Positions 1 to 63,026 of a stretch of DNA of 64,000 nucleotides are shown here, piece by piece; positions within the stretch are counted from its first letter, which is position 1; each line of letters opens with the position of its first letter. The notes under the pieces were generated by a model. The model searched no databases, was not told the DNA's origin, and worked only from the letters and a program-made list of their open reading frames with translations. The stretch is from Naegleria gruberi (Eukaryota). The DNA lies in assembly GCA_000004985.1 (NCBI GenBank), contig GG738879.1; one strand, written 5' to 3'. The position numbers and the translations under genes were made by a program.

Positions 1-416
1 ACCCAAACCCAAACCCAAACCCAAACCCGAACCCAAACCCAAACCCAAACCCAAACCCAAACCCAAACCCAAACCCAAACCCAAACCCAAACCCAAACCC
101 AAACCCAAACCCAAACCCAAACCCAAACCCAAACCCAAACCCAAACCCAAACCCAAACCCAAACCCAAACCCAAACCCAAACCCAAACCCAAACCCAAAC
201 CCAAACCCAAACCCAAACCCAAACCCAAACCCAAACCCAAACCCAAACCCAAACCCAAACCCAAACCCAAACCCAAACCCAAACCCAAACCCAAACCCAA
301 ACCCAAACCCAAACCCAAACCCAAACCCAAACCCAAACCCAAACCCAAACCCAAACCCAAACCCAAACCCAAACCCAAACCCAAACCCAAACCCAAACCC
401 AAACCCAAACCCAACC
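1..416. repeat. Terminal telomeric repeat tract (CCCAAA)n; G-strand TTTGGG
   Basis: About 69 perfect tandem hexamers starting at base 1, with the C-rich strand 5'->3' as expected for a left chromosome end. One variant unit CCCGAA lies near position 27. The tract ends at ...cccaaccccac before unique sequence. Confidence 0.9.
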
Positions 417-441
417 CCACAGTTCTCAAATTACTCAATCT

Positions 442-1036
442 ATGCTCCAAGAAGATGGTTTTGATATATCAGATGAAAGTTATGATATTACCTGGAATAA
501 CATTCCTATAATTACTGACCTATCTTTAGATAATATCTTTCTTAATTACTCTGCCACAGAATTACATATTCCAATGATTAGATGTCCAAAATGGATATCA
601 GCTTGGGTTAAAATTAATTCACCAAAACAAAAAGCAATACTTTTAGAAGCAATGAAAGGAAAAGATAATAGTAATACTATATTTTCTTCAGAATTAACTA
701 AATGGGTTAATTCATATTTTCCAGAAAACCAATTAGAAGAGATTAAACAGAGTTCATTATATGATAATGCTACTACTAGAAAAGAAATTAATAAGGTTAC
801 TAAATATTTGAAAAAACAATATTGTTTTAATAAGATGACAGAAACAATTGTTGACGAAGAATTAGCAAGAATGAATATTCAATTAATTAAGAAAGGCAAT
901 GCTTGGACATGGGAACAAATTTTACAAGAAGATGAAGAAGAAGATTATCAACCTCAAACAAAGAAGAAAAAGACTGTTGACGATTATTCCTCTATTAATT
1001 GGCAAGAATTACATCCTCAATTTATTAAAATTGAAG
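442..1036 (+). CDS. Subtelomeric ORF, 5' portion, truncated by an assembly gap (hypothetical protein)
   Basis: ATG at 442, open for 198 codons until the N run begins at 1037. Bases 421-753 recur identically at 3361-3693. Confidence 0.5.
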
Positions 1037-2896
1037 NNNNNNNNNNNNNNNNNNNNNNNNNNNNNNNNNNNNNNNNNNNNNNNNNNNNNNNNNNNNNNNN
1101 NNNNNNNNNNNNNNNNNNNNNNNNNNNNNNNNNNNNNNNNNNNNNNNNNNNNNNNNNNNNNNNNNNNNNNNNNNNNNNNNNNNNNNNNNNNNNNNNNNNN
1201 NNNNNNNNNNNNNNNNNNNNNNNNNNNNNNNNNNNNNNNNNNNNNNNNNNNNNNNNNNNNNNNNNNNNNNNNNNNNNNNNNNNNNNNNNNNNNNNNNNNN
1301 NNNNNNNNNNNNNNNNNNNNNNNNNNNNNNNNNNNNNNNNNNNNNNNNNNNNNNNNNNNNNNNNNNNNNNNNNNNNNNNNNNNNNNNNNNNNNNNNNNNN
1401 NNNNNNNNNNNNNNNNNNNNNNNNNNNNNNNNNNNNNNNNNNNNNNNNNNNNNNNNNNNNNNNNNNNNNNNNNNNNNNNNNNNNNNNNNNNNNNNNNNNN
1501 NNNNNNNNNNNNNNNNNNNNNNNNNNNNNNNNNNNNNNNNNNNNNNNNNNNNNNNNNNNNNNNNNNNNNNNNNNNNNNNNNNNNNNNNNNNNNNNNNNNN
1601 NNNNNNNNNNNNNNNNNNNNNNNNNNNNNNNNNNNNNNNNNNNNNNNNNNNNNNNNNNNNNNNNNNNNNNNNNNNNNNNNNNNNNNNNNNNNNNNNNNNN
1701 NNNNNNNNNNNNNNNNNNNNNNNNNNNNNNNNNNNNNNNNNNNNNNNNNNNNNNNNNNNNNNNNNNNNNNNNNNNNNNNNNNNNNNNNNNNNNNNNNNNN
1801 NNNNNNNNNNNNNNNNNNNNNNNNNNNNNNNNNNNNNNNNNNNNNNNNNNNNNNNNNNNNNNNNNNNNNNNNNNNNNNNNNNNNNNNNNNNNNNNNNNNN
1901 NNNNNNNNNNNNNNNNNNNNNNNNNNNNNNNNNNNNNNNNNNNNNNNNNNNNNNNNNNNNNNNNNNNNNNNNNNNNNNNNNNNNNNNNNNNNNNNNNNNN
2001 NNNNNNNNNNNNNNNNNNNNNNNNNNNNNNNNNNNNNNNNNNNNNNNNNNNNNNNNNNNNNNNNNNNNNNNNNNNNNNNNNNNNNNNNNNNNNNNNNNNN
2101 NNNNNNNNNNNNNNNNNNNNNNNNNNNNNNNNNNNNNNNNNNNNNNNNNNNNNNNNNNNNNNNNNNNNNNNNNNNNNNNNNNNNNNNNNNNNNNNNNNNN
2201 NNNNNNNNNNNNNNNNNNNNNNNNNNNNNNNNNNNNNNNNNNNNNNNNNNNNNNNNNNNNNNNNNNNNNNNNNNNNNNNNNNNNNNNNNNNNNNNNNNNN
2301 NNNNNNNNNNNNNNNNNNNNNNNNNNNNNNNNNNNNNNNNNNNNNNNNNNNNNNNNNNNNNNNNNNNNNNNNNNNNNNNNNNNNNNNNNNNNNNNNNNNN
2401 NNNNNNNNNNNNNNNNNNNNNNNNNNNNNNNNNNNNNNNNNNNNNNNNNNNNNNNNNNNNNNNNNNNNNNNNNNNNNNNNNNNNNNNNNNNNNNNNNNNN
2501 NNNNNNNNNNNNNNNNNNNNNNNNNNNNNNNNNNNNNNNNNNNNNNNNNNNNNNNNNNNNNNNNNNNNNNNNNNNNNNNNNNNNNNNNNNNNNNNNNNNN
2601 NNNNNNNNNNNNNNNNNNNNNNNNNNNNNNNNNNNNNNNNNNNNNNNNNNNNNNNNNNNNNNNNNNNNNNNNNNNNNNNNNNNNNNNNNNNNNNNNNNNN
2701 NNNNNNNNNNNNNNNNNNNNNNNNNNNNNNNNNNNNNNNNNNNNNNNNNNNNNNNNNNNNNNNNNNNNNNNNNNNNNNNNNNNNNNNNNNNNNNNNNNNN
2801 NNNNNNNNNNNNNNNNNNNNNNNNNNNNNNNNNNNNNNNNNNNNNNNNNNNNNNNNNNNNNNNNNNNNNNNNNNNNNNNNNNNNNNNNNNNNNNNN
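1037..2896. other. Assembly gap (run of N, 1860 nt)
   Basis: Continuous n characters. The track ORFs translated across it (X runs) are artefacts. Confidence 0.99.
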
Positions 2897-3296
2897 ACCA
2901 AACCCAAACCCAAACCCAAACCCAAACCCAAACCCAAACCCAAACCCAAACCCAAACCCAAACCCAAACCCAAACCCAAACCCGAACCCAAACCCAAACC
3001 CAAACCCAAACCCAAACCCAAACCCAAACCCAAACCCAAACCCAAACCCAAACCCAAACCCAAACCCAAACCCAAACCCAAACCCAAACCCAAACCCAAA
3101 CCCAAACCCAAACCCAAACCCAAACCCAAACCCAAACCCAAACCCAAACCCAAACCCAAACCCAAACCCAAACCCAAACCCAAACCCAAACCCAAACCCA
3201 AACCCAAACCCAAACCCAAACCCAAACCCAAACCCAAACCCAAACCCAAACCCAAACCCAAACCCAAACCCAAACCCAAACCCAAACCCAAACCCA
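2897..3296. repeat. Second (internal) telomeric (CCCAAA)n tract in the same orientation as the terminal one
   Basis: About 66 hexamer units, one CCCGAA variant, immediately after the N gap. It is followed by 64 bp of unique sequence and then the same subtelomeric block as at 421. Confidence 0.9.
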
Positions 3297-3381
3297 TAGA
3301 GATTTATCAGAAGGTTATTCTTTCATTTCTTCATTAGCTGAACCTGGAGGATGGAGTTATAGTTCTCAAATTACTCAATCT

Positions 3382-3693
3382 ATGCTCCAAGAAGATGGTT
3401 TTGATATATCAGATGAAAGTTATGATATTACCTGGAATAACATTCCTATAATTACTGACCTATCTTTAGATAATATCTTTCTTAATTACTCTGCCACAGA
3501 ATTACATATTCCAATGATTAGATGTCCAAAATGGATATCAGCTTGGGTTAAAATTAATTCACCAAAACAAAAAGCAATACTTTTAGAAGCAATGAAAGGA
3601 AAAGATAATAGTAATACTATATTTTCTTCAGAATTAACTAAATGGGTTAATTCATATTTTCCAGAAAACCAATTAGAAGAGATTAAACAGAGT
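3382..3693 (+). CDS. Second copy of the subtelomeric ORF, 5' portion, truncated by a 50-N gap
   Basis: Identical to 442-753 (offset 2940). ATG at 3382. Confidence 0.5.
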
Positions 3694-3743
3694 NNNNNNN
3701 NNNNNNNNNNNNNNNNNNNNNNNNNNNNNNNNNNNNNNNNNNN
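3694..3743. other. Assembly gap (50 N)
   Basis: n run. Confidence 0.99.
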
Positions 3744-4514
3744 TGCGCGCTTAAATGGTCCTATCAAGGTTCTCAAGAATGATAAAATCAAAATTGACCT
3801 CAGTGGTCACAAAACTGATTTCTTCCTTATTGAAAAGCCAATTACTATTGATAAGAATACAAAGAATCCAAGTCTTTGCCCAATAACCCTAATAAAAGAA
3901 AAAACCTAATTGGAGCCATCACAGAAGGACTTAGAAAAGGTGTTTCTACTTCAGATCTCATGGTTGGTGCAAGACATAAGAAAACCAACAGTTTATTTCC
4001 TTATCTACGATCTGAGGGTCTTGCTAGCAAGAATTTCACAGACACCTTATTTTCTCTGGACGAACCCATTGGTTTATCAACGATTGTTTTATTGTTTCTT
4101 TTGGAGAAATATGTAGAGTTGCGAGGAAGAATTAAAATAGAGAACTTTAATGGATTGGAGTTTTTACCGATTTTTTCCTGCAATGCAGGTTTTTTATAGG
4201 GGAGTTGTTCTACTTCAATCTCGATTTTGTAAACAACTATATTAACTCGGGACAATGCTAAATAAAGTACAATGACCCAAAAAGCAGCATTTCTGAGCAA
4301 CATACCATTTGGATGAAGAATATGTTGAGTGAGCTTTTACCTCAACTTATATTTTATTAAGTTTACAATGAAAACAAGTCCATTCTTCACTTCGATCAGA
4401 ATTAGACACAATTTTGGGCCAATATTGAGAGAACAGTTTTTCCAATTTCATGGTCTTATGACAAGATTAAAAGAGGAATTACTATTATTTGGTCCTTGAA
4501 TTGATAGAAAAGCT

Positions 4515-19212: not shown

Positions 19213-21759
19213 TTATTTTTTCTTCTTTTGTTGTTTGAAAGTAACTTTTGGTGTTCGTTTCTTGGTTTGATCTTTAGGAACAAAATCTTCCTCCTCATCG
19301 TCATCACTCAGTGGAATGGCATCATCAAAAGAGCTACCTAGTTTCATGTTAGTGAGGTTGATTCGTTTTGGTTGTTGCTTGGCTTCCATTTTCGTTACTT
19401 TTAAAGCAGAGCTGGTACTAACAGCTTGGGCAGTACTGGTAGATTCAGCCTTTGTCACTTTCTTTTCCTTACTTCTTTCCACTTCGAATTTAAGCGATTT
19501 ATTCCACTCAGTAGGAAAAGTTTCTGTCAAAGCTGAAAGAGGACGACGATAAACATTCTTGTTTCCCCTCAAATGAGAAATAAATCTTGATACTGATACG
19601 TTTGAATTTTCTCCTCCTCTTAATCGAGATTCTGCATGAGTCAAACATAGACCCGATTGGGCTCTAGTGCAAGCTACAAAGAGTAATCTTCTTTCTTCCT
19701 CAATTTCTGCAGGTTTTTCTGCCTTGTAGAAAGGCAATGTACCTTCTTCAACACCACAAACAAATACAATTCCAAATTCCAATCCTTTAGAGGAGTGAAT
19801 GGTTGCAATAGTTGCCTTGTCATTCGAATCGGTTTCTCCTTCATTAAAGTTGTCTGGAACTAATGAAATATTGTGAAGGAACTCTGTCAAGGTACCTTCA
19901 GGATTTTTAACTTCATACTCTGCACAAATGTTGAGCAATTCCATAACGTTTTCATATCTTGTTTCTGCTGATGATTTCTCATAAGATTCTAGATAGGAAT
20001 AGTATTGAATCTTTTCAGTAATGGCAAGAAATATTTCTCTTGGTGATGAATCTAGCTTTTTAATTCCCTCAATGATTCCAATAAATTCTTTAAATCCCTT
20101 CTTGGCTTGAATACCTTTTATCTTTTTCTTATCCTGAATGACTTGTCTAATTATCTCATAACAGGAAACATTATTAGCAAGGGCTTCTTTCTTGATTGTT
20201 TTGATAGTTTGTTCTCCAATTGATCTCTTTGGAATGTTGATGCATCTTTCAAAGGCAAGATTATCATTGACATTATCAACCATACGGGCGTAGGCAATAA
20301 TATCCTTAACTTCCATACGATCGTAGAATTTGAAACATCCCAACACTTTATAATCAATACCGTGTACACCAAATGAGGTTTCAAAGGATCTTGAAGCAGC
20401 ATTGGTTCTTATCAAGACTGCAAAATCTTTAAAGCTTAACTTTCCTTCACTCTTTGAAATCAAGGAGAGTATTTCTTTGCTAACAAATTCTGCCTCCATT
20501 TCAGAAGATTCTAATTCCATAATACTAATTGGTAGTCCAGTATTGTTCGCTGTTGTTAATTTTTGATTTCTCAATCTAGATGTATTGCTTTCAATGATTT
20601 CATCACTTATAGATAAAATATTCTTTGTAGATCTATAATTTTGGTGTAAAAGTACATGTTTCATATTTTGGAAATCGTCTGATATTTTTCTCATGAGAGA
20701 ACAATCACTATATCTCCAAGAATAAATATTTTGATCAACATCTCCAACTACATAAATATTCTTGTGTTTGGATGATAGGAATTTTGCAATCTTGTACTGT
20801 AACTTGTTGGTGTCTTGGAATTCATCGACCAATAGGGCTTTGCATTGATCTCCATAGATTGTCAAAACATCTGAATTTCTTTCAAACAATTGAACTACTG
20901 AAAGGAGCAAGTCATCAAAATCTAGTGCATTATTTTCATGTAAATGTCTTTCATATTCAATGAACACTTGAGCTATGGCTTCTTTAATCTTTTTAGGATC
21001 TGCTATATTATTTCTGTATGAGCTTACATAATTTTTCGTGATTGGATTCTTTCTGAGTTCCTCCCTGACTTCATCTTCATGTTGTGAAGCATTCAATTCT
21101 CTATTCTTTGCTCCACTAATAACATGCATTACTTGAAGTGGTGCCAACACCTTGGTAATATTTGTCTTTCCAGATCTAAATTCAGTAATAATTGAATTAT
21201 TAGAATTCTTTAAAATATTTGTAATAACCTCTTGTTGATCATTGGCATCCAGAATTGTAAAACTATTGGTCAAATTAGATCTCACTCGATTTGCATATTT
21301 CCTCAAAATCTTGGCACAAATCGAATGAAAAGTTCCCAAATAACAATAATCCTTCTCTTCAAACTTTTTAGTTTGTGGATATCCTTTCACAAGTGCATCC
21401 ACTCTACTTTTCATTTCATTTGCAGCCTTGTTTGTAAAGGTCATTGCATAAATATTAAACGGTTGAATATTTGCCATAATTGTTAAATAGGCTATTCTAT
21501 ATGTAATTGTCTATTAAAATAGAAAATAATAAAAAACAAATTATTAAATTATTGGGTCATCATGAATCCTAATAATTTTACTTACCTTTGTCTTTCCACT
21601 TCCGGGACCAGAATAAACACAAACAGGATGCAAATGACTAGCTGTAACAGCCTCAAATTGTTCCGGATTTAAAAGTGTTTTAATATTCTCCACAAAATCA
21701 ACCGAAGAGTTTGATAAGGTTGAAAATTGTGAAGATTCCCCCTTTGGATGTTGAAGCAT
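19213..21759 (-). CDS. UvrD/PcrA/Srs2-family DNA helicase, 2 exons
   Basis: Exon 1 is 21586..21759, ending ...NPEQFEAVT..SGPGSGKTK. A 75-nt intron spans 21511..21585 (GTAAGT...TTTTAATAG). Exon 2 is 19213..21510, beginning TITYRIAYLTIMANIQPFNIYAMTFTNKAANEM, which is colinear with UvrD GSGKT-RVLVHRIAWLM...AVTFTNKAA. A K-rich C-terminal tail follows. Confidence 0.85.
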
Positions 21760-40862: not shown

Positions 40863-40912
40863 NNNNNNNNNNNNNNNNNNNNNNNNNNNNNNNNNNNNNN
40901 NNNNNNNNNNNN
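40863..40912. other. Assembly gap (50 N) inside a duplicated LRR gene
   Basis: n run. Confidence 0.99.
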
Positions 40913-47561: not shown

Positions 47562-47797
47562 TGCAACTAGTGTTGCTAATTCTGTAGTAAAAAGCGAGAA
47601 AAATCACCTTAATTAGTTTTCAATATTGGGCAATACGAAGTAGTTATTCAATACCTTGAAGGTAAGACTTAAACTGGATTTAGAATACTGACTAAATTGG
47701 AAAATGAACATTCTAAACTTTCCAAAAACATAGCATGTCCAATTTTTGTTATGAACATGGCTAAAGATTTTTCATAATAATTCTGAAAAACAAGAAA

Positions 47798-49992
47798 ATG
47801 GAACGAAATGCTCCCACCCACTTGACCAAAATAAATGATCTTGATGAACGTACTTTGAGAAAATTGTTGGTTAAAGCCACAAAGATTAAATCCAATCCAT
47901 CAATCTATTCTCACAGAATGGAAGATAAGGTTTGTCATCTTTCTTAATCAAAATTTTAACCAATAATCCACAGTCACTGTTAATGTTATTTGAAAAACCG
48001 TCACTTCGTACACGTCTTTCATTCGAAACAGCAATGACATCATTTGGTGGAAATGCCATCTATTATAGTGCCGATGAAGGACCGTTCGGAAAGAAGGAAA
48101 ATGTAAAGGATACTGCCATGTGTGCAGCTCAATATGTTGATGCATTTGTGTTGAGATTAAAGTCTAGAGAAAGTTTGTTGGAATTTGTAAAATATTCAAA
48201 AGTTCCTGTTATAAATGCCTTAGATGATTGGGCTCATCCTTGTCAAATATTGGCTGACCTGTTTACCATTGCAGAATTGAAATTAAATCCAAAACCACTC
48301 CACGAAAATCATCTCAACTTTGATAGACTGAAAATGGCTTACTATGGTGATTGTAGAAATAATGTCACTTATGATTTGATGAGAGCTGCTGCCATGATGA
48401 ATTTCAAACTCGTTCTCTCTTGCCCTGATAATGATGACTATAAACCAGTCCAAGAAGTTTGGGATGAAATCAAGAGAATCAATGAGAAGAGTGTAGAATG
48501 GATTGAAAATCCACTTGAAGCTTCTAAGGGATGTGATGTCATCTATACAGATTCATGGATGTCCTACCACATTCCTGAAAGTATGCTTCAAACCAGAGAA
48601 CAAGCATTGAAAAACTATCAAGTTAACATGCCAATATTGAAAAATGCAAAGAGTGATGTTATTTTCATGCATTGCCTTCCTGCAAAACGTTCTGAAGAAG
48701 TTACAGATGAAGTGATGGACTCTGTACATTCAGTTATCTATCATCAAGCATGGAATAGACAATGGGCTCAACAAGCACTCCTCCTCTATGTCATCTATGG
48801 ACCCAGTATCTTTTCAGAACACGAATATGAATCCGAGCTCTTATCAGAGGAAAAGTACTTTGCTATGGCTCCAAAACATCTTGGAACGATGCACTCCATT
48901 AGTAAGAAGAAGCACGAGTCTGTAAATAAGGGTGAAAAGAAATATCTGAAACATGGAAACAAGGAGAGAATACTTATAAGCTTTGGAGGAAATGCTCTTC
49001 AAAGTGATTCCACAAAGGAGGTAACCTATGAAGATTTACATTCCAACATTGATAAGAATTGTTCTGCACTTGCCAAATTTCTCCAAAATTGCAAGCAATC
49101 CAACATTTGCATTACACATGGAAATGGTCCTCAAGTTGGTTTCATTCACAAGGAATTGAATCATGAATCCCAAATGCCACTCGATGTTTGCGGAGCCATG
49201 TCTCAATCATTCATTGGTTATCAATTCCAACAATCCCTGATGAATAATATGCACCAACAAGACACGAAAGGAAATGTCCATGTTCGTTCTGTTACCACAC
49301 TCATCACACAAACTCTGGTGGATCAAAATGACAAGGCTTTCCAACATCCTAACAAGCCTGTTGGTAAATTCCTCTCTCCTGAAGAGTATGAATCATCAAA
49401 GAAGGACAAACAAATGATGACTTTCCACAAGTTTGATGAAGGCTACAGAAGAGTTGTTCCTTCTCCAACACCTATTGATATCATTGAATTGGACACTATC
49501 AAAACACTCTTCAATGAAGGACACTTGGTTATTTGTAATGGAGGTGGAGGTATCCCTGTTGTTAAAAGCCGAGATGAAGTTGGTGGTGATGAGAAAGCAA
49601 TGATTGGTAAAAAGCAAGCACAAAGAAAGAACCACCTGATGGGCATAGAAGCAGTCATTGACAAGGATAGATCCAGTTCCCTGCTAGCACAAAAGCTTAC
49701 TGTCGATTACTTTATCATTCTCACCAAAGTGGATCATGTCTACTTGAATTACTCTTCAAAAAAGGAGGAGAAGAAGCCTATTACTTCAATGGATGTTGAA
49801 ACTGCTCGACAATACATTACGGAAGGATGCTTTGAAGAAGGTACCATGCTACCAAAGATTGAATCAGCCACTGAATTTGTTACCAAGACTGGAAAACCTG
49901 CTCTCATCACAAGCTTGGACAATTTCATCAGAGAAACTTCCAACAATGAAATCAAACTACGTCATATTGAAGGTACTTGGATTGTTCCATAA
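47798..49992 (+). CDS. Bifunctional ornithine carbamoyltransferase - carbamate kinase fusion protein, 2 exons, about 716 aa
   Basis: Exon 1 is 47798..47929 (MERNAPTHLTKINDLDERTLRKLLVKATKIKSNPSIYSHRMEDK). A 44-nt intron spans 47930..47973 (GTTTGT..CCACAG). Exon 2 is 47974..49992. OTC motifs: SLRTR, HPCQ, DSWMS, HCLP. About 50-aa linker. Carbamate-kinase motifs: ILISFGGNAL, HGNGPQVG, GGGGIPV, VIDKDRSSSLLA. One uninterrupted reading frame. Confidence 0.85.
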
Positions 49993-50787
49993 ATCTAAAA
50001 ATTCTATCATCCAACAACATTCACAACATTAATAAACAATAGTGGTGATTATTCGTGATATTTAAATCAAAACAAGAAAAAAATTCCCTTCATGTTGATT
50101 GAACTTGGTGTTGCTTTTATTTTTTAAAAAATTAAAAAAAATTAAAAATGCAAAATCTGAAGATGAGAGATCAAACACATTAATATTGAAACGAGACAAC
50201 CGTTGTTTAGTATTAATAGTAGGATGAAATATTGTTGTGCTTTGCTTTTTTGAAAAGGATCTCCATTACCTGAAATTTCATCAATATTTGCTTACTATGT
50301 ATCATACACACCAAAAAAATTGAAGGCTTGGTGTCCTTGATATTTCCATCACACTTTCAGTAAATATTGGAGGTAGATATTATTGTTTATCGGATCAGTA
50401 ATTCAAGGGTTTGAATTGGTCATTAAGATAATACAATTCATACAAGACAGGAGAAATTCTTGCAAAAAGCTTACCGAATCAAAGCTTCCGTATGTTATTC
50501 AATGATCAAAAGGCTTTTCAGCACAGCACATTTTCCACCAAACCTTCCTCTTTTCAAAAGTTTCATGAAACCTTGTAATAGTTGATACAAAACTATAGTA
50601 ATTTGTCCAAGATGGTCAAGTAATTACAGAAAGGGCAGGTAGTATCCTGAACGATTTAACCAAATTTTGGATGGTTGTTGACTTGTATGTACAGCCGTTG
50701 AGGGTATTTGATGGATACATTATTTTACTGCAATTACCGAGGGTTGATTGTTACAGGCAAAACACATCACAAAAAAACATCAACACA

Positions 50788-52069
50788 ATGGCAACTGACA
50801 CATTGCTCAACAAACAGAGCTATTTCGAAAGTTTGCTGACATTATCAGAATCTAACTCAACTATAACAACAACAAACACTACTCATGCCTCTATTGCCGC
50901 CCTTTTCCCTCAATTCGATGAAAATGTTGGATCCATAGTGGTTTCATGTGTCTTTCTTACATCATACGCCATTGTTCTCTCAGCTATTGCTGTACTATTA
51001 ATACGATATAGACAGGAAATGAAAAAGAACCAAGTGATTGTGTTTCTTTTAGTGTCTTGGTGTATGATACAGCAATCTATCGCCTTGGCATTCAGACTTG
51101 GATACAATGGGAAAGCTCTCTCGTTGAATTTAAACTATTCAGACTATACCACGATTGAGAACTTGAGCTCTCACTTCTTGCCAATCTACATTTGTTCTGC
51201 AATTGAAAATATGGCAGTATACTTGCAGGGAGTTGTGATTGTGGTGATCACTTGTTTCATCTTGAATATGTTGTAAGTTGTCACAACGTTTTTATTTTCA
51301 AATAACTGATATTCTAAATAGTTTGGATACTGCTCGCATTGCACATGCCATGTCAGCTAAGGCTTACAAAATCTTCAAGTACATGTTCAATATTATCATT
51401 GCAATCTTTGCTATTAGCATCCTTCTGTTGGTATTTGTTCATGTGGGTGTTATTTTGGCGTCAAAGGTTGCTCCAAATTTCAATGTGAACGTTTTCCCAA
51501 TTTTGATTGTCATCTTTTTGGCTTTTACTATAATGATTTCAATTGAATCATTGATGTTTATATTTGTTGGAGTTAAATTGATAATATTTGTGAGGAAAAA
51601 TTCTCTTAAACTTGGAGCTCAGGCCAATGCAAATTTCCTTCAAAGACCAGAAACTAAAATTGCAGGATTAATTATTGGAATGTTGATTAGTGCCTACTTC
51701 CAATTATTGGCTGCTATTGTTGGTATCATGACAACAACTTTCAATTCTACTTTCCACTTTCTCGATTATTCCTTTCAAGCTGGAGGAATTTTACTCTTCT
51801 CAATCTTTGTCTTACTGGTTTATAATCCTCTGGTTTCATTCACTGCAAAGGACGGCAACCCATCCACAGAAAGTCTCAAATCAGAGAATAACAAATCAGA
51901 GAATCACAAATCAGAGAAGATAGTTTCAGAGAAATCACTTGCTTCTCAAAGAAAGAGTCAAACCTATCCAAACTCTCCTATTCGTGAATTGGATTGTGTG
52001 TCACCAACAACTACAACATCAGGTGGTGGGCCAACAGAAGAATCCCCTCCTGAAATTGCCAAAATATAA
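50788..52069 (+). CDS. Seven-transmembrane receptor-like protein (putative GPCR), 2 exons
   Basis: Exon 1 is 50788..51272. A 49-nt intron spans 51273..51321 (GTAAGT..TAAATAG, phase 2). Exon 2 is 51322..52069. Seven predicted TM helices. The Ser/Thr-rich C-terminal tail (KSENNKSENHKSEKIVSEKSLASQRKSQT...) is typical of GPCR tails. Confidence 0.65.
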
Positions 52070-52260
52070 AAAACATTGTACCATAAACTTTGATATGTTT
52101 ATTTAAAAAGGAAATAGCAAAATATAGGAAAACTGTTACTAGTGAGCTTGAATACCCTCAAAAATCTTCTAATTTTGGATGGCCACTACTTAAACCATAA
52201 TGTTTACCATCTCTGTCATGAACAATTCTTGCAAAGAATTAAAATCCAAAATAAACATAT

Positions 52261-53106
52261 TTACAGTAACTTTTGCATGTCCATTAAAACAAATTCCGTA
52301 GAGGTGTGCACACCCTCAATGATTAATTGTTCATCCTGAAGTAAATTCTTTGAATCAAAGTGAATAAAACATCCATCTCCTTCGCTTAATTCAATAATTC
52401 TGCTTGAACTATTACTTGTCACCTTGATGACAATTGGCACTTCAATATCGTCATCTTTCTTTCTTCCTTGAGATGACTTTCCACTCGTATCTTCCTTCTT
52501 TTGATTAAACAATGGAATGTGAATATAAATTTGTCTATCTGGATGGAGTGAATGTGTCACTTGTTTTCCTTCTTCCAAAACACATGACAGGGCATAGAAA
52601 TCTTGATCGATAGCAATAAGATTTTCACTCTCAGGGTCATTTACAACTTCTTTAGGGGCAATCATCATGCAAAGTTGATTCAATTTCTGAGCTTTCGAAT
52701 AATTTCTTAGTTGATAATTTGGTTTGGAATTCAAAGTTCTAGGTTTCACCCAAATTTGCAACAAATGACAAATATCCCTCTTATTTCTATTAAACTCACT
52801 ATGTTCAATTCCACTTCCAGCAGAAGTAAACTGAACTGAACCTTTCGTACAAACTTCCACATTTCCCATCGAATCAGAATGTGTCAATTGACCACTCAAC
52901 ACATACGTAAATATTTCATAATTTCTATGAGGATGCCTTCCAAATCCATTCGAAACTCCAACAAAATCCTCATTCAACACTCTCAATGGTCCAAATTGAG
53001 TAAATTTTCCATTCGAATATTTTGCAAAATTAAAGGTATGATAAGAATCCAACCAATCTTCTAGGAAATGACCTCGTTGATGAGAGGAGAGAATTTCAAA
53101 TTTCAT
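52261..53106 (-). CDS. Pirin-family cupin protein
   Basis: ..NGFGRHPHRNYEIFTYVLSGQLTHSDSMGN.. is the pirin metal-binding motif. ATG at 53106 (MKFEILSSHQRGHF); the track ORF extends further from a non-ATG start. Confidence 0.75.
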   Translation of the reverse strand: MKFEILSSHQRGHFLEDWLDSYHTFNFAKYSNGKFTQFGPLRVLNEDFVGVSNGFGRHPHRNYEIFTYVLSGQLTHSDSMGNVEVCTKGSVQFTSAGSGIEHSEFNRNKRDICHLLQIWVKPRTLNSKPNYQLRNYSKAQKLNQLCMMIAPKEVVNDPESENLIAIDQDFYALSCVLEEGKQVTHSLHPDRQIYIHIPLFNQKKEDTSGKSSQGRKKDDDIEVPIVIKVTSNSSSRIIELSEGDGCFIHFDSKNLLQDEQLIIEGVHTSTEFVLMDMQKLL

Positions 53107-53386
53107 TTTTGTGATTTTTTTTGATTTTGTTTTTTGAAAATTTTTTGATTCTAAATAAAGTTTTTTGCGTATTGGGAAGCGCATTAATTGATGAGTTAGT
53201 GCGCACTCAATTTCTGAAAGAAAAAATGCTGTAAAAAATGGGGTCAATCCTGTGGTTATTTTCTCGATCAATATAGTGGATTAGGAAACGATATTTGAAG
53301 GAAAGATAGATTTACATGTCTAGTTTATGTGGTTAAAATTTTAAAGTTTAACTCCTACTAGGAAGGGCAAAAATTGACATTTCAGA

Positions 53387-53457
53387 TGCGTCGACCGGGA
53401 ATTGAACCCGGGTCACGGCGATGGCAACGCCGTATTCTACCACTAAACCATCGACGC
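53387..53457 (-). tRNA. tRNA-Gly (anticodon GCC)
   Basis: Reverse complement GCGTCGATGGTTTAGTGGTAGAATACGGCGTTGCCATCGCCGTGACCCGGGTTCAATTCCCGGTCGACGCA. Acceptor GCGTCGA/TCGACGC pairs perfectly. Anticodon loop TTGCCAT. Confidence 0.9.
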
Positions 53458-57313: not shown

Positions 57314-60069
57314 CTATTTAGTGTCCAATCGATCTTCAAAAGCCCATGAGCTTCGCATACTAACATCGTCCACCATTTCTCTGAGTTTTTCCAATCTCAT
57401 ATTCGCCACGAAATCAGTCGGATCTCTGCTCACAACCTTTCCAAATAACTCAATCGCCTTCACCACATCTTCACTTTTAAGATTATTCATAGTTGAGCTC
57501 ATGTTCATGGAATCCACCACCCCAAAAGTGTGTTTCTGTCCATCAATTGTAAGCTTATCTGGAACGCATTCACCATGAGAGTAACTTCCAAACATTATCT
57601 CGATTGCATCTTCAAAGTTGGTCTTGTTTTTGGCTTTCAATTCGTGCGAGTTATTCGAAACTGTTGAAGGTGTTCTTGTGAGAATTTCAAATACCCAACT
57701 TGCTTGTTGTCTTCCAACAACTGCTAAGCGGCCTATTTTTCTTTGATTCCTCTTTGGAAGAAGTGGAGATGTTTCAATTACTTCCTTCGTAACGAGAATG
57801 TCAACTCTGTAATGTTTAGTCAAAGATTCCAAACGAGCTGCCAAATTGACAGTATCTCCAATAATGGTTGGATCAACTCTTTGATCTTCACCAATCAATC
57901 CAACTGCACATTTACCTCTTGCAATTCCAATTCCAACTCTAACTGTTGGATATTTCTTACTCTTATTGAATTCTAATAATCTTCTTTGTATTTCCATTGC
58001 TGCCAAAACAGATTGACCAGGAGTTAAAAACAATGCCAAAATACCATCACCCAAATACTTGTCAATATATCCACCATGTTCTCTCACAACTGGTCCAACC
58101 AATGACAGATAATTATTCAAAAATTCAAAAGTCTCATCTGGTGTCATCTTTTCACAAATACTTGTATAACCTCTAATGTCAGCAAACAACACATCCAATT
58201 CCATTTCAAAGTAATCTCCGTGCGTAAGGTCCATTACACTCTCCTTCTGAACAATCGACATGAATTCCTTTGGAACAAATTTGTGAACTGTCTCATTGTG
58301 CAATCTTAACAAGTCCTGAATGGTCCTCGAAAAGATTAACGACATAATTGATGAAAGGAAAATTCCCATAATTCCACCCACTGTATATCCTATCAATTCC
58401 TTAATAGCAAGCCCCTCTGATTCATTCTGATCCAACAAAATATCATCCCTAATCATATTCTCAATAGTTTTCAATTCATCGATTTTTTGTGTAATATTCC
58501 AGAACCAATTTTGAGCTGTAAAAATTGTCTTGGCATAGGTCAAATTGAAAGGAGAGGCCAATATGTATGATTCCATCATGTTTGTAACGGTCGCATTATT
58601 CACACTCAATGAAAGTTGCTCAAAATATTTGAAAGATCCAACATTTCTAGATTTGGCATCAATGATTGTGAACATGGTATCAAATCTTGATCTCAAATAC
58701 AAGTAACTGACATAGAAATCATTGGTAAAGGCACCAGCAGCTAATCCATTACTCACAGTAGCTCTCTTCTGACCCAAACTTTCCTTCATGACCATTAGGA
58801 GTGAATAAATATTCGATTTGATAAGAAAATCTGGATCTCTACCTAAACTTGTCGCCACATTTACAATATCAATCATATTCTTAATGATGGTAGTATAGAA
58901 ATCGAGAGCTACCTTCGCCACTGGAAATTTCAATGTTGAAATATTGTAACGATGAGCAGAGAGTATATGAAACGATGCATCAATCATATCGAGAGTTGGT
59001 TCAACTTTTTGTTTGGCAATTGTTTCGTCTTTTGCATAGGTAAAATAATCAATAATCCCCTTTTTTGTCGCATTCCAATTCAGTAATTGTAAATCTGTTG
59101 CATTTCGTTGTAAATCAAGCTCAGTAGTAAATGAGGTACCTTTCGAACCTAAATATAAAGAAGAAGAACCTCTTTCTTTTTGAATTTCATGAATAATATC
59201 CGAAATACCAGTTGTGAATATGGTAAGAAGAGTGTTGGCATCAGATTCTTTCACTCTCTTTCATCAAATTCAGTTTCGAATAATTACAATAAGAAACTTA
59301 CCAAAACTGAATAATTAATTAAAATTCCTTCAAATACTATCATACAAGCTAAAGAAAAGATAAAAATCAGAAGTAATTTGATAGAAAGTGGAATCTTTGC
59401 CAATATTTTTGATAAAGTCCACTTTCTTGCTTCCTTTTTCGAGACAACACTATACGAAATGTTAGAAGAAATACTGGAAGAAACTCCCATCATATTCTTT
59501 TCATATGAAGACCTAGACCCTGTATCCATTGTTCCTTCCTCAAGTGTTGTCAAATAATCTCCCTTCATATCATTTTCCTCAGCTTGTTTCGAATAAGTAC
59601 TTAGTGAACTAACTGATTTCTCCTTTTGCAATAAACTAATTTCCTTAGAACTTCTCAATGAATTCATTGTTGAACCTTGTTTTAGAAGAAAGTTGGTGTT
59701 GAGTGTTTTTTGAGTTCGAACCGAAACTAAACTTGGTTTACTCGCACTAGAACTCATGGCACCTAGATTAAGAGGAGTAATTTGATTTCGTTTAGGAGGA
59801 TTACTTTCAGGTCGAGAAACATGATGCTGATGAAGAAATAAATCTTCTGACTTGTTAGAAACTTTAGACGAATCGCCTACTATTGTATTCCTATCGTGCT
59901 GTTCTTCGTTCATTATTGAGGAAAGTCTTTGATGTTGTATGGATGATGTTTCGTCTATTGAATTCGAAAGTAATTCATCAGTTGTAGCACGGTGATGGTG
60001 TTCATGCGGAGAAGATGAATTACTACTACTACCGGAAGAAGATGTATGTTGCTTATACTTGTCAGACAT
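57314..60069 (-). CDS. Receptor-type class III nucleotidyl cyclase (Lys/Asp specificity residues suggest adenylyl), 2 exons, about 903 aa
   Basis: Exon 1 is 59302..60069 (Ser/His-rich N-terminus then TM LLLIFIFSLACMIVFEGILI). A 44-nt intron spans 59258..59301 (GTAAGT..GAAAG). Exon 2 is 57314..59257: about 270-aa helical sensor region, second TM, then a cyclase homology domain (DVLFADIRGYTSICEKM..YIDKYLGDGILALF..RVDPTIIGDTVNLAARLES). The track ORF 57314..59254 starts at a GTG, not ATG. Confidence 0.85.
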
Positions 60070-60422: not shown

Positions 60423-63026
60423 TTATTTAAAATCAAGTCGATCTTCAAATGACCACATTGTATTGGCACTCAAAATTTCTTCCAATTTTGTTATTCTCAT
60501 TTGAACTAAATAATCCTGCGAGTCAACTTCTTGAATTTGTTTCAGATAATCAAGTGCTTGAATTGGATTAAACAAATCCTTTTCATACATCATGGCAATG
60601 GATGCTTCGAATTTATCCTTATGTTTCTTCTTACTGTCAACTGAACCAAAAGATGGAGATTCTGTCAAAATTTCAAATATGGTGCATGATTGTTGTCTTC
60701 CAACAACTGCAATCTTTCCAATATTTCTGTATTTGGCATTGGATAAAAGTGGTGATGAATCAATTACATCTCTTGTTACCATAATGTCAACTCTGTAATG
60801 TTTAGTCAAAGATTCCAAACGAGCTGCCAAATTGACAGTATCTCCAATTATGGTTGGATCAACTCTTTGATCTTCACCAATCAATCCAACTGCACATTTT
60901 CCTCTTGCAATTCCAATTCCAACTCTAACTGTTGGATATTTCTTACTCTTATTGAATTCTAATAATCTTCTTTGTAATTCCATTGCTGCTAAAACAGATT
61001 GACCAGGAGTTAAAAACAATGCCAAAATACCATCACCCAAATACTTGTCAATATATCCACCATGTTCTCTCACAACTGGTCCAACCAATGACAAATAATT
61101 ATTCAAAAACTCAAACGTCTCATCTGGTGTCATCTTTTCACAAATACTCGTATAACCTCTAATGTCAGCAAACAACACATCCAATTCCATTTCAAAGTAA
61201 TCACCATGATTCAAATCCATGACGCTATCCTTTTGAACAATCGACATGAATTCCTTTGGAACAAACTTGTGAACTGTCTCATTGTGCAACCTTAACAAAT
61301 CTTGAATAGTCCTTGAAAAGATTACAGCCAAAATGATAGAAGCAATTACAACACTGAAACCACCAACACAATAACCCATAAGAGAATCTTTGGCCGATGA
61401 TTCAATACTTTGCGAGTTATTAAATATGCCATCTCTAATGTTATCTTCCACTACTTTTAATTCATCAATCTTGGTAGTCACATTCCAAAACCAATTCTCT
61501 GCAGAAAACACCGATTGGGCTTTTGTTAAATTGAATGGTGAAGACAACATGTATGATTCCATCATATCAACAACAGCGTTACTCTTTACATATCCAGTTA
61601 ATTGTTGATAGTATCCAAGACTATCCCTGTTCCTCGATTTGGCATCAATGACCATGTACATGGTATCATATCTTGACTTTAAATATAAAAAGTTTACATA
61701 GAGATCATTGGTGAAAGCACCAGCAGCCACAGCATTACTACCAACAGCTCTTCTCTGACCTAAACTTTCCTTCATGACCATCAAGAGTGTATAGATGTTG
61801 GTCACGACGAGGAATTTACGATCTTCAGCCAAAGCAGCCAATACAGACACCACATCAATCATATTCTTAATGCAATTTGTGAAAAAATCCAATGCAGGTT
61901 TGGCCACTGGAAATTGTAAATTTGAAATCTTTTCTCTGTGAGAAGGCAGGACATTCAAATAGATATTCTCAATAATTTGAATAACTGTATACGTCTGATT
62001 CCTTGTAATTTCATCTTGTTCTATCAGTAAATCGAAAAATTCTGCAATAGAAGCCCTAGTTTCATTCCATTTAGAGAGGGCAAGGTTTGTGGCATTCCTC
62101 TGTGTAGCCAATTCAACCACAAACTTTTTACCTTTACCACCAAGAAAGAGTGATGAAGATCCACGTTCCTTTTGCAGTTCGTGGATGATTTGGGCAATAT
62201 TGGTGGAGAAGGTCGTTAATTTCTGAATACTCTGTGCTTCAAGAACTCGCTATATAGAGTAAGGGCCAACACCATGTTATTGTTATTGTGGAAAATCAGA
62301 GTTGTAATGAAACATCAATAAGAAAAATTGACAAATACCCAATTAAGGGATGAAACATACCTTTGCAGAATCATTCACTAATATGGCTCCAAAAACCACA
62401 AGCGAAATGATTGATAAAATCACAATAAAGAAAAGTTTCACAGGAAGAGGAATCATGGCAACGAGTTTTGAAAAGCTTACTCTCTTCTTTCGTTGCTGGT
62501 TTCTACTGACGATAGAGTAAGAGACTACTGATGAGGATATCGATTTCTGCGTGATTGACGTTCTCATCTTTTCCATGTCATCAAATGGATCTGTCTTGGC
62601 AAGATTTTGAAGGTTATTATCAAAGTTTTTAGAACTGGTGATACTGGATAGGAGTGAGCTCTGCGTTTTAACTGCAACTGTCTTGGATTCCTTCTTTTGA
62701 GTAGAGTTGTTTTTATAGTGATGATTCGGTTTGGATGAATTCATGGGAGAAACCTTTGCCTTAGAAGAGAAGAATATTGAGGTACTTAAGGTATTTGTTG
62801 TATTCCTTGTTGATTCTTCTTGTTGTTGCTCTTCATCTTGTTGTTGTTCTTCTTCAATGGTTGTACTCTTTTGATACGAAGGAGCATTTCCTTCCTCACT
62901 ATATGGTTTCTGAACGGGTGAGGGATCCTCTTCCAGAGTAGTAGTCCCACTCACAGTGTATCTATTCTCTCTATGTGAGAGATCCTGATGATGTTCCTCA
63001 TGATGTTGATGCTGATGATTTGTCAT
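60423..63026 (-). CDS. Tandem paralogue of the receptor-type class III cyclase, 2 exons, about 830 aa
   Basis: Exon 1 is 62361..63026 (true ATG at 63026; the track start at 63059 is TTG), ending ..FGAILVNDSAK. A 111-nt intron spans 62250..62360 (GTATGT..TATATAG). Exon 2 is 60423..62249, beginning RVLEAQSIQKLTTFSTNIAQIIHELQKERGSSSLF. The intron position and phase are identical to the paralogue (both second exons begin RV..). The catalytic domain is about 90% identical to gene 1. Confidence 0.85.

What the first reader, a model, noticed from the sequence alone, without database searches (positions are those of the whole stretch)
47798..49992. Ornithine carbamoyltransferase fused in-frame to carbamate kinase
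Both energy-yielding steps of the arginine deiminase (arginine dihydrolase) pathway are encoded as one polypeptide. All OTC motifs (SLRTR, HPCQ, DSWMS, HCLP) are followed by a roughly 50-aa linker and all carbamate-kinase motifs (GGNAL, HGNGPQVG, GGGGIPV, VIDKD). As far as I know, OTC and CK are normally separate genes in both bacteria and eukaryotes. A fusion implies carbamoyl-phosphate channelling and would be an unusual domain architecture. The 5' exon with a 44-nt intron supplies the missing OTC N-terminus, which argues this is a real eukaryotic gene and not a bacterial contaminant.
Basis: partly seen in the sequence, partly recalled or inferred. Interest (0 to 1): 0.8.

Follow-up and report, generated by a model that had tools for sequence, protein, structure and literature searches.

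The report
Fused OTC–carbamate kinase protist gene
A Naegleria-like amoeba really does encode ornithine carbamoyltransferase and carbamate kinase as one 716-residue protein, but the same fusion is already present, and in places annotated as fused, in many low-oxygen protists, so it is genuine but not new.

Summary
Exon 1 (47798-47929), a 44-nt GT..AG intron and exon 2 (47974-49992) give a 716-aa product with OTCace_N, OTCace and AA_kinase (carbamate kinase) domains in one frame, and all the named motifs are present. It is not an artefact:
- An independent metagenome contig is 97% identical and carries the same uninterrupted ORF and an identical linker.
- The Naegleria lovaniensis orthologue has an intron at exactly the same codon.
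- The neighbouring genes are eukaryotic.

The novelty claim fails. About 30 full-length OTC-CK fusions were found, from Naegleria lovaniensis, Carpediemonas, Mastigamoeba, Pelomyxa, Barthelona, Reticulomyxa, transcriptomes and metagenomes. Two public records already call it "fused". In the nearest prokaryotes the two genes lie side by side in the same order, sometimes in one frame with a single stop codon between them.

The closest solved structures are the Giardia arginine-dihydrolase OTC and the Pyrococcus and Giardia carbamate kinases. The most likely function is a cytosolic bifunctional enzyme that turns citrulline, Pi and ADP into ornithine, ATP, NH3 and CO2, handing carbamoyl phosphate between domains. 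Direction, channelling and the link to arginine deiminase are inferred. No ADI gene lies in the window, and Naegleria is not among the species reported to have all three pathway enzymes. I found no paper describing or characterising this fusion. Interest is modest.

The parts
47798..47929 (+). Exon 1: ATG plus 44 codons (MERNAPTHLTKINDLDERTLRKLLVKATKIKSNPSIYSHRMEDK), the N-terminal helix of the carbamoyl-phosphate-binding domain.
   Evidence: It aligns residue for residue with the N-terminus of the N. lovaniensis fusion P0002 and is 100% identical in the independent contig L001.
47930..47973 (+). Spliceosomal intron, 44 nt, GT..AG, 27% GC.
   Evidence: Read through, it brings a stop after 6 codons. 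N. lovaniensis has a 51-nt GTGAGT..CAG intron after the homologous ...MKDK codon.
47974..49992 (+). Exon 2: 672 codons plus TAA, covering the rest of OTC, the linker and all of carbamate kinase.
   Evidence: Compared with L001 it has 14 substitutions across 2019 nt, whereas the flanks differ at 15-26% of positions.
47819..48276 (+). OTCace_N (carbamoyl-phosphate-binding) domain, residues 8-145, spanning the intron. Contains SLRTR and HPCQ.
   Evidence: Pfam PF02729, 3e-40. The motif columns are invariant across 26 fusions.
48328..48789 (+). OTCace (ornithine-binding) domain, residues 163-316. Contains DSWMSYH and HCLP.
   Evidence: Pfam PF00185, 4e-46. The best solved relative is 3grf, which shares SLRTR and DSWMSYHI.
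48790..48966 (+). Inter-domain linker, residues 317-375. Its first ~27 residues (..F.E.E.E.ELLSEEKYF.MAP.HL..MH) are conserved across the Naegleria clade; the rest is variable and lysine-rich.
   Evidence: Alignment A1. Weakly predicted helices followed by pLDDT below 50. Identical in L001.
48967..49989 (+). Carbamate kinase domain, residues 376-716, with GGNAL, HGNGPQVG, NKPVG, GGGGIPV, VIDKD and TMLPK.
   Evidence: Pfam PF00696 and TIGR00746 arcC at 376-701. All six solved-structure hits are carbamate kinases: 1e19, 3kzf, 1b7b, 2e9y, 4axs and 8crv.
49576..49629 (+). 18-residue insertion in the CK domain, specific to this species. It is either a disordered loop or, possibly, an unspliced in-frame 51-nt intron (49579-49629).
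   Evidence: Absent from all other fusions. pLDDT below 50. An in-frame GT..AG candidate exists. Two of the 14 substitutions against L001 lie inside it.

Best explanation
This is a real nuclear gene of a Naegleria-clade heterolobosean amoeba. It is an orthologue of a fusion gene found widely in protists of low-oxygen habitats. It encodes a bifunctional, probably cytosolic enzyme. Most likely mechanism (inferred): the N-terminal OTC domain phosphorolyses citrulline to ornithine and carbamoyl phosphate, and the C-terminal carbamate kinase domain passes the phosphoryl group to ADP, yielding ATP and carbamate, which breaks down to NH3 and CO2. Covalent linkage fixes a 1:1 ratio of the two activities. 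It keeps the labile carbamoyl phosphate close to its consumer, which helps pull the thermodynamically unfavourable OTC step. Because OTC forms trimers and CK forms dimers, the fusion could assemble as two OTC trimers bridged by three CK dimers; this is speculation. Shown here: the gene structure, both domains and their catalytic motifs, purifying selection, orthology, and the wide distribution of the fusion. Inferred: the direction of flux, channelling, the oligomeric state, localisation, and the source of citrulline.
For: Gene and domains.
Not a sequencing or assembly error:
- The independent contig L001 is 97.2% identical over 5.9 kb and has the same open linker.
- The coding sequence differs at under 1% of positions while the flanks differ at 15-26%, with 8 synonymous to 5 non-synonymous codon changes.
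Eukaryotic origin:
- The intron position is shared with N. lovaniensis.
- The neighbours are actin, gelsolin, G-alpha, F-box, WD40 and NIT-cyclase genes.
- A telomere-like array lies at the window start.
Orthology and spread:
- Full-length hits at 37-55% identity over 96-99% of the query come from N. lovaniensis, Carpediemonas, Mastigamoeba, Barthelona and Pelomyxa, plus a partial hit (38% over 74%) from a truncated Reticulomyxa model. Two of these are named as fusions.
- 35 of 36 two-domain hits have the order OTC then CK.
Catalytic competence:
- OTC residues of SxRxR, HPxQ, DxWxS and CLP are invariant in 26 fusions.
- CK residues of GGxAL, GNGPQxG and KPxG are likewise invariant; GGGGxPV, IDKD and MxPK are nearly so (at least 90%).
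Catabolic leaning:
- The best solved relative of the OTC half is 3grf, which by my own knowledge is the Giardia catabolic OTC and which shares the unusual SLRTR and DSWMSYH motifs.
- The CK half is closest to 1e19, 3kzf and 1b7b.
- Most named carriers are anaerobes or microaerophiles, and Mastigamoeba and Carpediemonas have ADI as well (PMC5052871).
- Divergent prokaryotic transcarbamoylase-CK fusions sit in clusters that look catabolic.
Single mRNA in relatives:
- Complete Trinity ORFs exist for P0007 and P0025.
- Three ~2.04-kb contigs bounded by sequencing adapters each carry the whole ORF.
No N-terminal extension relative to homologues, which suggests a cytosolic location.
Against: - No transcript or protein data exist for this organism.
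- No ADI gene is in the window, and Naegleria is not among the species reported to have all three enzymes, so the source of citrulline is unknown.
- Sequence cannot tell a catabolic from an anabolic OTC/CK pair. The CK half's top structural relative, 1e19, is the Pyrococcus enzyme regarded as working anabolically (PMC6022934).
- The CK domain scores below NCBIfam's arcC equivalog cut-off (303 against 358). It also evolves much faster than the OTC half: 43% against 70% identity to N. lovaniensis.
- The AlphaFold model is mediocre (pLDDT 74.5, pTM 0.54) and says nothing reliable about how the domains pack.
Confidence: 0.6

Rival explanations
1. Same gene, opposite direction. The CK domain acts as a one-ATP carbamoyl-phosphate synthase (carbamate + ATP), and the OTC domain immediately uses the carbamoyl phosphate to make citrulline for arginine synthesis or ammonia assimilation.
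For: - The best CK structural hit is 1e19, and the second-best OTC hits are 1a1s/1pvv. By my own knowledge these are the Pyrococcus furiosus pair, for which anabolic use and a physical channelling complex are reported (PMC6022934).
- ADI is not reported for Naegleria and is absent from the window.
- A 2026 paper proposes an anabolic, urea-cycle-like role for the reverse-order arcC-OTC fusion of anaerobic ciliates that lack ADI (PMC13198582).
Against: - The OTC half is closest to the Giardia catabolic enzyme and shares its atypical motifs.
- Most carriers are anaerobes, several with complete ADI pathways.
- The domain order matches arcB-arcC catabolic gene pairs in bacteria.
- Nothing in the sequence decides the direction.
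Confidence: 0.27
2. The N-terminal domain is a carbamoyltransferase for a substrate other than ornithine/citrulline (for example putrescine or another ureido compound), so the fusion harvests ATP from a different carbamoyl donor.
For: - The motifs deviate from the canonical STRTR and DxxxSMG (SLRTR, DSWMSYH).
- The OTC equivalog scores only just clear their cut-offs: 288.1 against 280.85, and 306.5 against 306.
- Divergent prokaryotic fusions lie beside xanthine-dehydrogenase-type genes.
Against: - The same variant motifs occur in 3grf, which is deposited as an ornithine carbamoyltransferase.
- The putrescine carbamoyltransferase model scores 233 against a cut-off of 500, and the YgeW models score about 25.
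- HCLP and the NNV ornithine-site residues are conserved.
Confidence: 0.08
3. Artefact: two adjacent genes joined by a lost stop codon or frameshift in the assembly, or a bacterial contaminant scaffolded into a eukaryotic sequence.
For: - The window is a scaffolded draft with N runs.
- In some bacteria, arcB and arcC sit in one frame separated by a single stop, so one base error could mimic a fusion.
Against: - An independent metagenome contig has the identical linker and an open frame.
- N. lovaniensis and a third Naegleria-like contig (L089, a Logan assembly of an SRA run) have the same conserved linker.
- The intron is conserved in position.
- The neighbours on both sides are eukaryotic.
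- No N run lies within 6 kb of the gene.
Confidence: 0.02

Closest known systems
Annotated OTC-CK fusion proteins of protists: Carpediemonas membranifera 'fused Aspartate/ornithine carbamoyltransferase and carbamate kinase' (P0006), Mastigamoeba balamuthi m51a1_g3115 'carbamate kinase fused with ornithine carbamoyltransferase' (P0014), Naegleria lovaniensis C9374_003042 (P0002), and Pelomyxa, Barthelona and Reticulomyxa
   Same: Same three Pfam domains in the same order. Alignable end to end (37-55% identity over 96-99% of the query). The same invariant catalytic residues. With N. lovaniensis it also shares the intron position and the conserved linker segment.
   Different: The Naegleria-clade proteins have a 51-55-residue linker with a conserved ~27-residue motif, against 4-35 residues elsewhere. 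They have HCLP where the others have NCLP. This species adds an 18-residue insertion in the CK domain. There is no shared synteny with N. lovaniensis.
Giardia lamblia arginine dihydrolase pathway enzymes: OTC (PDB 3grf) and carbamate kinase (PDB 3kzf). The organism assignment is from my own knowledge.
   Same: 3grf is the best solved relative of the OTC half (1e-69) and shares SLRTR and DSWMSYHI. 3kzf is the second-best CK relative (8e-51). The chemistry is presumed to be the same.
   Different: In Giardia the two are separate polypeptides and work downstream of a known ADI. Here they are fused and no ADI is known.
Pyrococcus furiosus carbamate kinase-like CPS and OTC, a non-covalent channelling complex (1e19; 1a1s/1pvv)
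   Same: 1e19 is the top CK structural hit and 1a1s/1pvv are the second OTC hits. A physical CK-OTC complex that channels carbamoyl phosphate is reported (PMC6022934). That is the functional logic a fusion would make permanent.
   Different: The Pyrococcus enzymes are separate proteins regarded as anabolic, and they are thermophile-specific.
arcC-OTC fusion of anaerobic APM ciliates (PMC13198582, 2026)
   Same: The same two enzyme families in one polypeptide, in anaerobic protists. One reverse-order protein (P0029) turned up in my search.
   Different: The domain order is reversed. The halves have different bacterial origins, and an anabolic role is proposed. That paper calls such fusions rare and reports no similar sequences in nr.
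Bacterial and archaeal arcB(argF)-arcC adjacent genes
   Same: Same gene order, 31-41% identity across both halves. In L005, L008, L009 and L030 the two ORFs are in the same frame, separated by a single stop codon. This is a plausible precursor state.
   Different: They are two polypeptides. No close prokaryotic relative among the best 80 loci was a true fusion. The true prokaryotic fusions found (P0071, P0048) are distant, at 27-34% identity, and sit in other gene clusters.

Membership tests
Ornithine carbamoyltransferase (EC 2.1.3.3) | OTCace_N and OTCace domains above the Pfam gathering scores | tested here: met
   138 bits against 29.9, and 157.5 bits against 29.4.
Ornithine carbamoyltransferase (EC 2.1.3.3) | Score above NCBIfam's curated OTC cut-offs, and above other transcarbamoylase models | tested here: met
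   TIGR00658 scores 288.1 against 280.85; NF001986 scores 306.5 against 306, so both pass narrowly. The putrescine, aspartate, N-acetylornithine and YgeW models all fall below their cut-offs.
Ornithine carbamoyltransferase (EC 2.1.3.3) | Carbamoyl-phosphate motifs S-x-R-x-R and H-P-x-Q; ornithine-site motifs D-x-x-x-S-M-G and H-C-L-P | tested here: inconclusive
   SLRTR, HPCQ and HCLP are present. The SMG loop reads SYH (DSWMSYH) and STRTR reads SLRTR. Both variants also occur in the deposited OTC 3grf and are invariant in 26 fusions.
Ornithine carbamoyltransferase (EC 2.1.3.3) | Citrulline/ornithine transcarbamoylation activity | not testable with these tools
   Needs an enzyme assay.
Carbamate kinase (EC 2.7.2.2, amino-acid kinase fold) | AA_kinase domain above the gathering score, with carbamate kinases as the nearest characterised relatives | tested here: met
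   PF00696 scores 81 bits against 24.9. All six solved-structure hits are carbamate kinases, with E-values from 4e-58 to 4e-44.
Carbamate kinase (EC 2.7.2.2, amino-acid kinase fold) | Score above NCBIfam's arcC equivalog cut-off | tested here: not met
   TIGR00746 scores 303.2 against 358.25, and NF009007 scores 248.7 against 266. The shortfall fits the lineage-specific insertions and the fast divergence of this half.
Carbamate kinase (EC 2.7.2.2, amino-acid kinase fold) | Nucleotide and carbamoyl-phosphate site motifs: GGNA, HGNGPQ, KP(V/I)G lysine, GGGG(I/V)P, IDKD, (S/T)MxPK lysine | tested here: met
   All are present, and the corresponding columns are invariant or at least 90% conserved in 26 fusions.
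Protist OTC-CK fusion protein | OTCace_N, OTCace and AA_kinase in this order in one ORF, alignable end to end with named fusions | tested here: met
Protist OTC-CK fusion protein | One mRNA and one polypeptide in vivo | not testable with these tools
   No RNA data for this organism. Relatives offer support only: complete Trinity ORFs and ~2.04-kb contigs bounded by adapters from three runs.
Arginine deiminase (arginine dihydrolase) pathway | An arginine deiminase gene in the same genome | not testable with these tools
   Only 64 kb is available. None of the 30 ORFs of 180 aa or more that I scanned matches an ADI/amidinotransferase family. Naegleria is not among the 16 eukaryotes listed with all three enzymes (PMC5052871).
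Arginine deiminase (arginine dihydrolase) pathway | Net catabolic flux from citrulline to ATP | not testable with these tools
   Needs biochemistry or labelling.

The most novel reading that the evidence does not exclude
The protist OTC-CK fusion has never been characterised, and I found no paper that describes it. It may form a fixed hexamer or larger assembly: OTC trimers bridged by CK dimers, built like aspartate transcarbamoylase holoenzyme, with true carbamoyl-phosphate tunnelling. In the Naegleria clade, which appears to lack arginine deiminase and has its own conserved ~27-residue linker motif, it may have been repurposed. One possibility is a stand-alone citrulline-to-ATP module fed by ingested bacteria. 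Another is a one-ATP ammonia-assimilating citrulline synthase.
Probability: 0.2. Interest if true: 0.55.

Novelty: new member of a known kind. Interest (0 to 1): 0.3.

Why it matters
For genome annotation, this locus should be called as one two-exon gene for a bifunctional OTC/carbamate kinase. The ab initio calls on the related contigs (L001, L089) and the N. lovaniensis model are all truncated or mis-spliced.

For biology, the fusion recurs across anaerobic and microaerophilic protists, yet it is missing from the specialist reviews of carbamoyl-phosphate enzymes that I could read. A 2026 paper even calls CK/OTC fusions nearly unique. A short comparative note or an enzymological study (oligomeric state, channelling, direction) would fill a real but modest gap.

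It adds nothing new about gene fusion in principle. It is a textbook Rosetta-stone fusion of two consecutive pathway enzymes.

Tried and rejected
- Exact-sequence look-up of the 716-aa product and nine other window ORFs found nothing, so this organism's proteome is not in the collection. Two other window proteins are 54% identical to N. gruberi and 44% to N. lovaniensis, and 61% to N. lovaniensis and 51% to Willaertia magna. The organism is therefore a Naegleria-clade heterolobosean but none of those four genomes. I could not name it.
- Eight literature searches found no description of an OTC-then-CK fusion. Reading Novak 2016 and the two carbamoyl-phosphate/transcarbamylase reviews gave the same result.
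- Neighbour-joining trees of each half (80 and 98 sequences, 100 bootstraps) were meant to test whether the fusion arose once. They do not resolve it. The Naegleria clade gets 100% support. Fused and unfused proteins, including Giardia's, are intermixed. The smallest split holding all fusions has 53% support for OTC and 0% for CK. A first attempt timed out.
- I scanned 185,579 prokaryotic species genomes for close fusions. The best loci were adjacent genes, not fusions.
- The AlphaFold2 model built on the 26-sequence alignment is too uncertain in the linker and in the domain arrangement to support any statement about channelling. I ran no fold search because sequence matches to solved OTC and CK structures were already decisive.
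- The spliced protein could not be submitted to the representative-library search, so I used the exon-2 product. That search showed that only a handful of 50%-identity clusters are fusions, among 5,634 hits with E below 1e-10.
- The low GC and strong skew of window 1-4000 turned out to be N runs plus telomere repeat, not biology.
- I could not search for an ADI gene in this organism or in Naegleria genomes with the tools and caps available.
Full report

Yes. The + strand carries an uninterrupted ORF at 47932..49992 (686 aa). It translates to exactly 716 residues. If the intron is read through, a stop follows six codons later. In the linker region only the coding frame is open.

Pfam places the three domains as follows:

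| Domain | Residues | E-value |
|---|---|---|
| OTCace_N | 8-145 | 3e-40 |
| OTCace | 163-316 | 4e-46 |
| AA_kinase | 376-691 | 1e-22 |

NCBIfam calls residues 5-318 ornithine carbamoyltransferase. TIGR00658 scores 288 bits, just above its cut-off of 280.85. It calls residues 376-701 carbamate kinase, but TIGR00746 scores 303 bits, below the equivalog cut-off of 358.

**2. Is it an artefact or a contaminant?**

No, on several independent grounds.

- A metagenome contig (L001, ERZ929261) is 97.2% identical to window 47612-53454 and carries the same continuous ORF.
- Against that contig, exon 1, the intron and the linker are identical. The coding sequence has 14 substitutions, with 8 synonymous and 5 non-synonymous codon changes, plus one in-frame 15-nt indel. 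The flanking intergenic DNA differs at 15-26% of positions. That is the signature of a gene under purifying selection.
- The Naegleria lovaniensis orthologue (P0002, 55% identity over 99% of the query) has a 51-nt GTGAGT..CAG intron after the homologous ...MKDK codon.
- The rest of the window is plainly eukaryotic: actin, gelsolin, G-alpha, RGS, F-box, WD40, TPR, ABC transporters and NIT-domain cyclases.
- The window begins with a (CCCAAA)n telomere-like array.

Two other window proteins place the organism. One is 54% identical to N. gruberi and 44% to N. lovaniensis. The other is 61% identical to N. lovaniensis and 51% to Willaertia magna. The organism is therefore a Naegleria-clade heterolobosean but none of those genomes. 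Its own proteome is not in the protein collection.

**3. Is the architecture unusual?**

Relative to the thousands of stand-alone OTCs and CKs, yes. In the library clustered at 50% identity, only a handful of clusters among 5,634 hits with E below 1e-10 are fusions. But it is not new.

The large-database search returned about 30 clusters of full-length proteins with all three Pfam domains. They are 37-55% identical over 96-99% of the query. Named sources are:

- Naegleria lovaniensis
- Carpediemonas membranifera, whose GenBank name is [quoted passage not shown]
- Mastigamoeba balamuthi, named "carbamate kinase fused with ornithine carbamoyltransferase"
- Barthelona sp.
- Pelomyxa schiedti
- Reticulomyxa filosa

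Two complete Trinity transcriptome ORFs from EukProt and many ~2-kb metagenome contigs add to the list. Of the 36 two-domain hits, 35 have the order OTC then CK and one has the reverse.

Three contigs from different SRA runs are ~2.04 kb long and bounded by Illumina adapter sequence at both ends. Each holds the entire Mastigamoeba-like ORF. They look like full-length cDNAs, so in relatives the fusion is transcribed as one RNA.

**4. What do the sequences say about function?**

Across 26 fusions, the carbamoyl-phosphate and ornithine-site residues of OTC are invariant: K-P-S-L-R-T-R, H-P-x-Q, N-V, D-S-W-x-S-Y and C-L-P. So are G-G-x-A-L, G-N-G-P-Q-x-G and K-P-x-G in the kinase. G-G-G-G-x-P-V, I-D-K-D and M-x-P-K are conserved in at least 90% of them.

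Two OTC motifs depart from the textbook forms, SLRTR for STRTR and SYH/SYG for SMG. The same variants occur in the best solved relative, 3grf (1e-69). It is deposited as ornithine carbamoyltransferase and, from my own knowledge, is the catabolic OTC of Giardia's arginine dihydrolase pathway. The next OTC relatives are 1a1s/1pvv. The CK half is closest to 1e19, 3kzf and 1b7b, which from my own knowledge are the Pyrococcus furiosus, Giardia and Enterococcus carbamate kinases.

There is no N-terminal extension relative to homologues, so a cytosolic location is the simplest reading.

The Naegleria clade is distinctive in three ways.

- Its linker is 51-55 residues, against 4-35 elsewhere.
- The first ~27 linker residues are conserved among the window, L001, N. 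lovaniensis and a third Naegleria-like contig (F.E.E.E.ELLSEEKYF.MAP.HL..MH).
- The CK half diverges much faster than the OTC half, at 43% against 70% identity to N. lovaniensis.

The AlphaFold model (pLDDT 74.5, pTM 0.54) folds both domains. It is unreliable for the linker and for an 18-residue species-specific insertion at 49576-49629.

**5. Where might the fusion come from?**

In the nearest prokaryotic relatives, 31-41% identical across both halves, OTC and CK are adjacent genes in the same order. In four loci they are in the same reading frame with a single stop codon between them. That is an obvious route to fusion.

True prokaryotic transcarbamoylase-CK fusions do exist (P0071, P0048). 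They are distant, at 27-34% identity, and lie in clusters with xanthine-dehydrogenase-type, amidohydrolase and luciferase-like genes.

My neighbour-joining trees could not decide whether the eukaryotic fusion arose once. Fused and unfused sequences, including Giardia's, are intermixed with weak support. Carpediemonas has the fusion whereas Giardia, which from my own knowledge is a fellow fornicate, has separate genes (PDB entries 3grf and 3kzf are single-domain chains). That suggests a later fission or a replacement, but this is inference.

**6. Most likely mechanism**

The best-supported reading is a bifunctional enzyme that catalyses the two lower steps of arginine/citrulline fermentation:

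- citrulline + Pi -> ornithine + carbamoyl phosphate
- carbamoyl phosphate + ADP -> ATP + carbamate

Fusion gives a fixed stoichiometry and a short path for a labile intermediate. It would also help pull the unfavourable OTC equilibrium. A non-covalent CK-OTC channelling complex is documented in P. furiosus (PMC6022934). Since OTCs are trimers and CKs are dimers, an assembly of trimers bridged by dimers is plausible but untested.

Evidence for the catabolic direction:

- the kinship with the Giardia OTC
- the anaerobic or microaerophilic habits of most carriers
- the co-occurrence of ADI, OTC and CK in Mastigamoeba and Carpediemonas, among others (PMC5052871)

Evidence against treating it as settled:

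- no ADI lies in the window
- Naegleria is not among the species listed with all three enzymes
- sequence cannot fix the direction
- an anabolic role has been proposed for the reverse-order ciliate fusion (PMC13198582)

I put the catabolic reading at about 0.6, the anabolic reading at about 0.27, another substrate at about 0.08, and an artefact at about 0.02.

**7. Novelty and verdict**

The claim that this is an unusual, undescribed architecture is wrong at the level of public sequence records. It is an orthologue of a fusion that is widespread in low-oxygen protists and already labelled as fused in at least two genomes.

At the level of the literature I could search, the OTC-then-CK fusion is neither described nor characterised. 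A 2026 paper treats CK/OTC fusions as nearly unique. There is a small real gap, in enzymology and evolutionary history, but no surprise for a specialist in protist anaerobic metabolism. I classify it as a new member of a known kind, with interest of about 0.3.

Noticed in passing
window 1-419 and 2898-3296; N runs 1037-2896, 3694-3743, 40863-40912: Two (CCCAAA)n telomere-like arrays, each followed by the same subtelomeric sequence (420.. equals 3365..), are separated by a 1,860-N gap. So the window is the end of a scaffolded draft chromosome. The very low GC and strong skew of the first 4 kb come from the N runs plus the repeat.
   Followed up: partly
window 49576-49629: An 18-residue insertion in the CK domain is found only in this species and its near-identical metagenome copy. 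It is predicted disordered. An in-frame 51-nt GT..AG (49579-49629) means it could be an unspliced intron, and substitutions against L001 cluster in and around it (2 of 14 inside).
   Followed up: partly
L005 3756/3760, L008 3879/3883, L009 3795/3799, L030 3780/3784: In several bacterial genomes, OTC and carbamate kinase ORFs are in the same reading frame with only one stop codon between them. They are one mutation away from the eukaryotic-style fusion.
   Followed up: partly
L003 6001-7959 (P0071) and L004 6001-7977 (P0048): Divergent prokaryotic transcarbamoylase-carbamate kinase fusions sit directly downstream of xanthine-dehydrogenase-type molybdoenzyme, amidohydrolase and luciferase-like genes. 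L003 also holds a transcarbamoylase fused to a Mo-enzyme. They may be part of a purine or ureide fermentation route.
   Followed up: no
window 19216-21477 (-): A UvrD/PcrA-type helicase. After Naegleria lovaniensis (61%) and Willaertia (51%), plus two unnamed metagenome sequences at 53-54%, the next-best hits are PcrA of Clostridia/Tissierellia at 38-39%. No other named eukaryotes appear in the top 120, so it is a candidate for lateral transfer into Heterolobosea.
   Followed up: no
L002 8001-10252 (N. lovaniensis C9374_003042) and L089 2136-4221: The public N. lovaniensis protein lacks 17 conserved OTC residues (VIDS.HS..YHQAWNRQ) that are present in the window and in L089, so its gene model is probably mis-spliced. 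The gene caller split the L089 copy into 522-aa and 175-aa pieces.
   Followed up: partly
window 57317-59254 (-) and 60426-62120 (-): Tandem paralogues encode a NIT (nitrate/nitrite-sensing) domain fused to an adenylate/guanylate cyclase domain. Each is followed (on the + strand, i.e. upstream in the genes' own orientation) by a 240-260-aa ORF that is probably its 5' exon.
   Followed up: no
window 50671-51276 and 51278-52069 (+): Two hydrophobic ORFs (201 and 263 aa) abut in different frames and are conserved in L001. They are probably one multi-pass membrane-protein gene with a short intron. Neither has a Pfam match.
   Followed up: no
fusion protein, OTC half versus CK half: The two halves of the same polypeptide evolve at very different rates within the Naegleria clade: OTC is 70% identical to N. 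lovaniensis and CK is 43%.
   Followed up: partly
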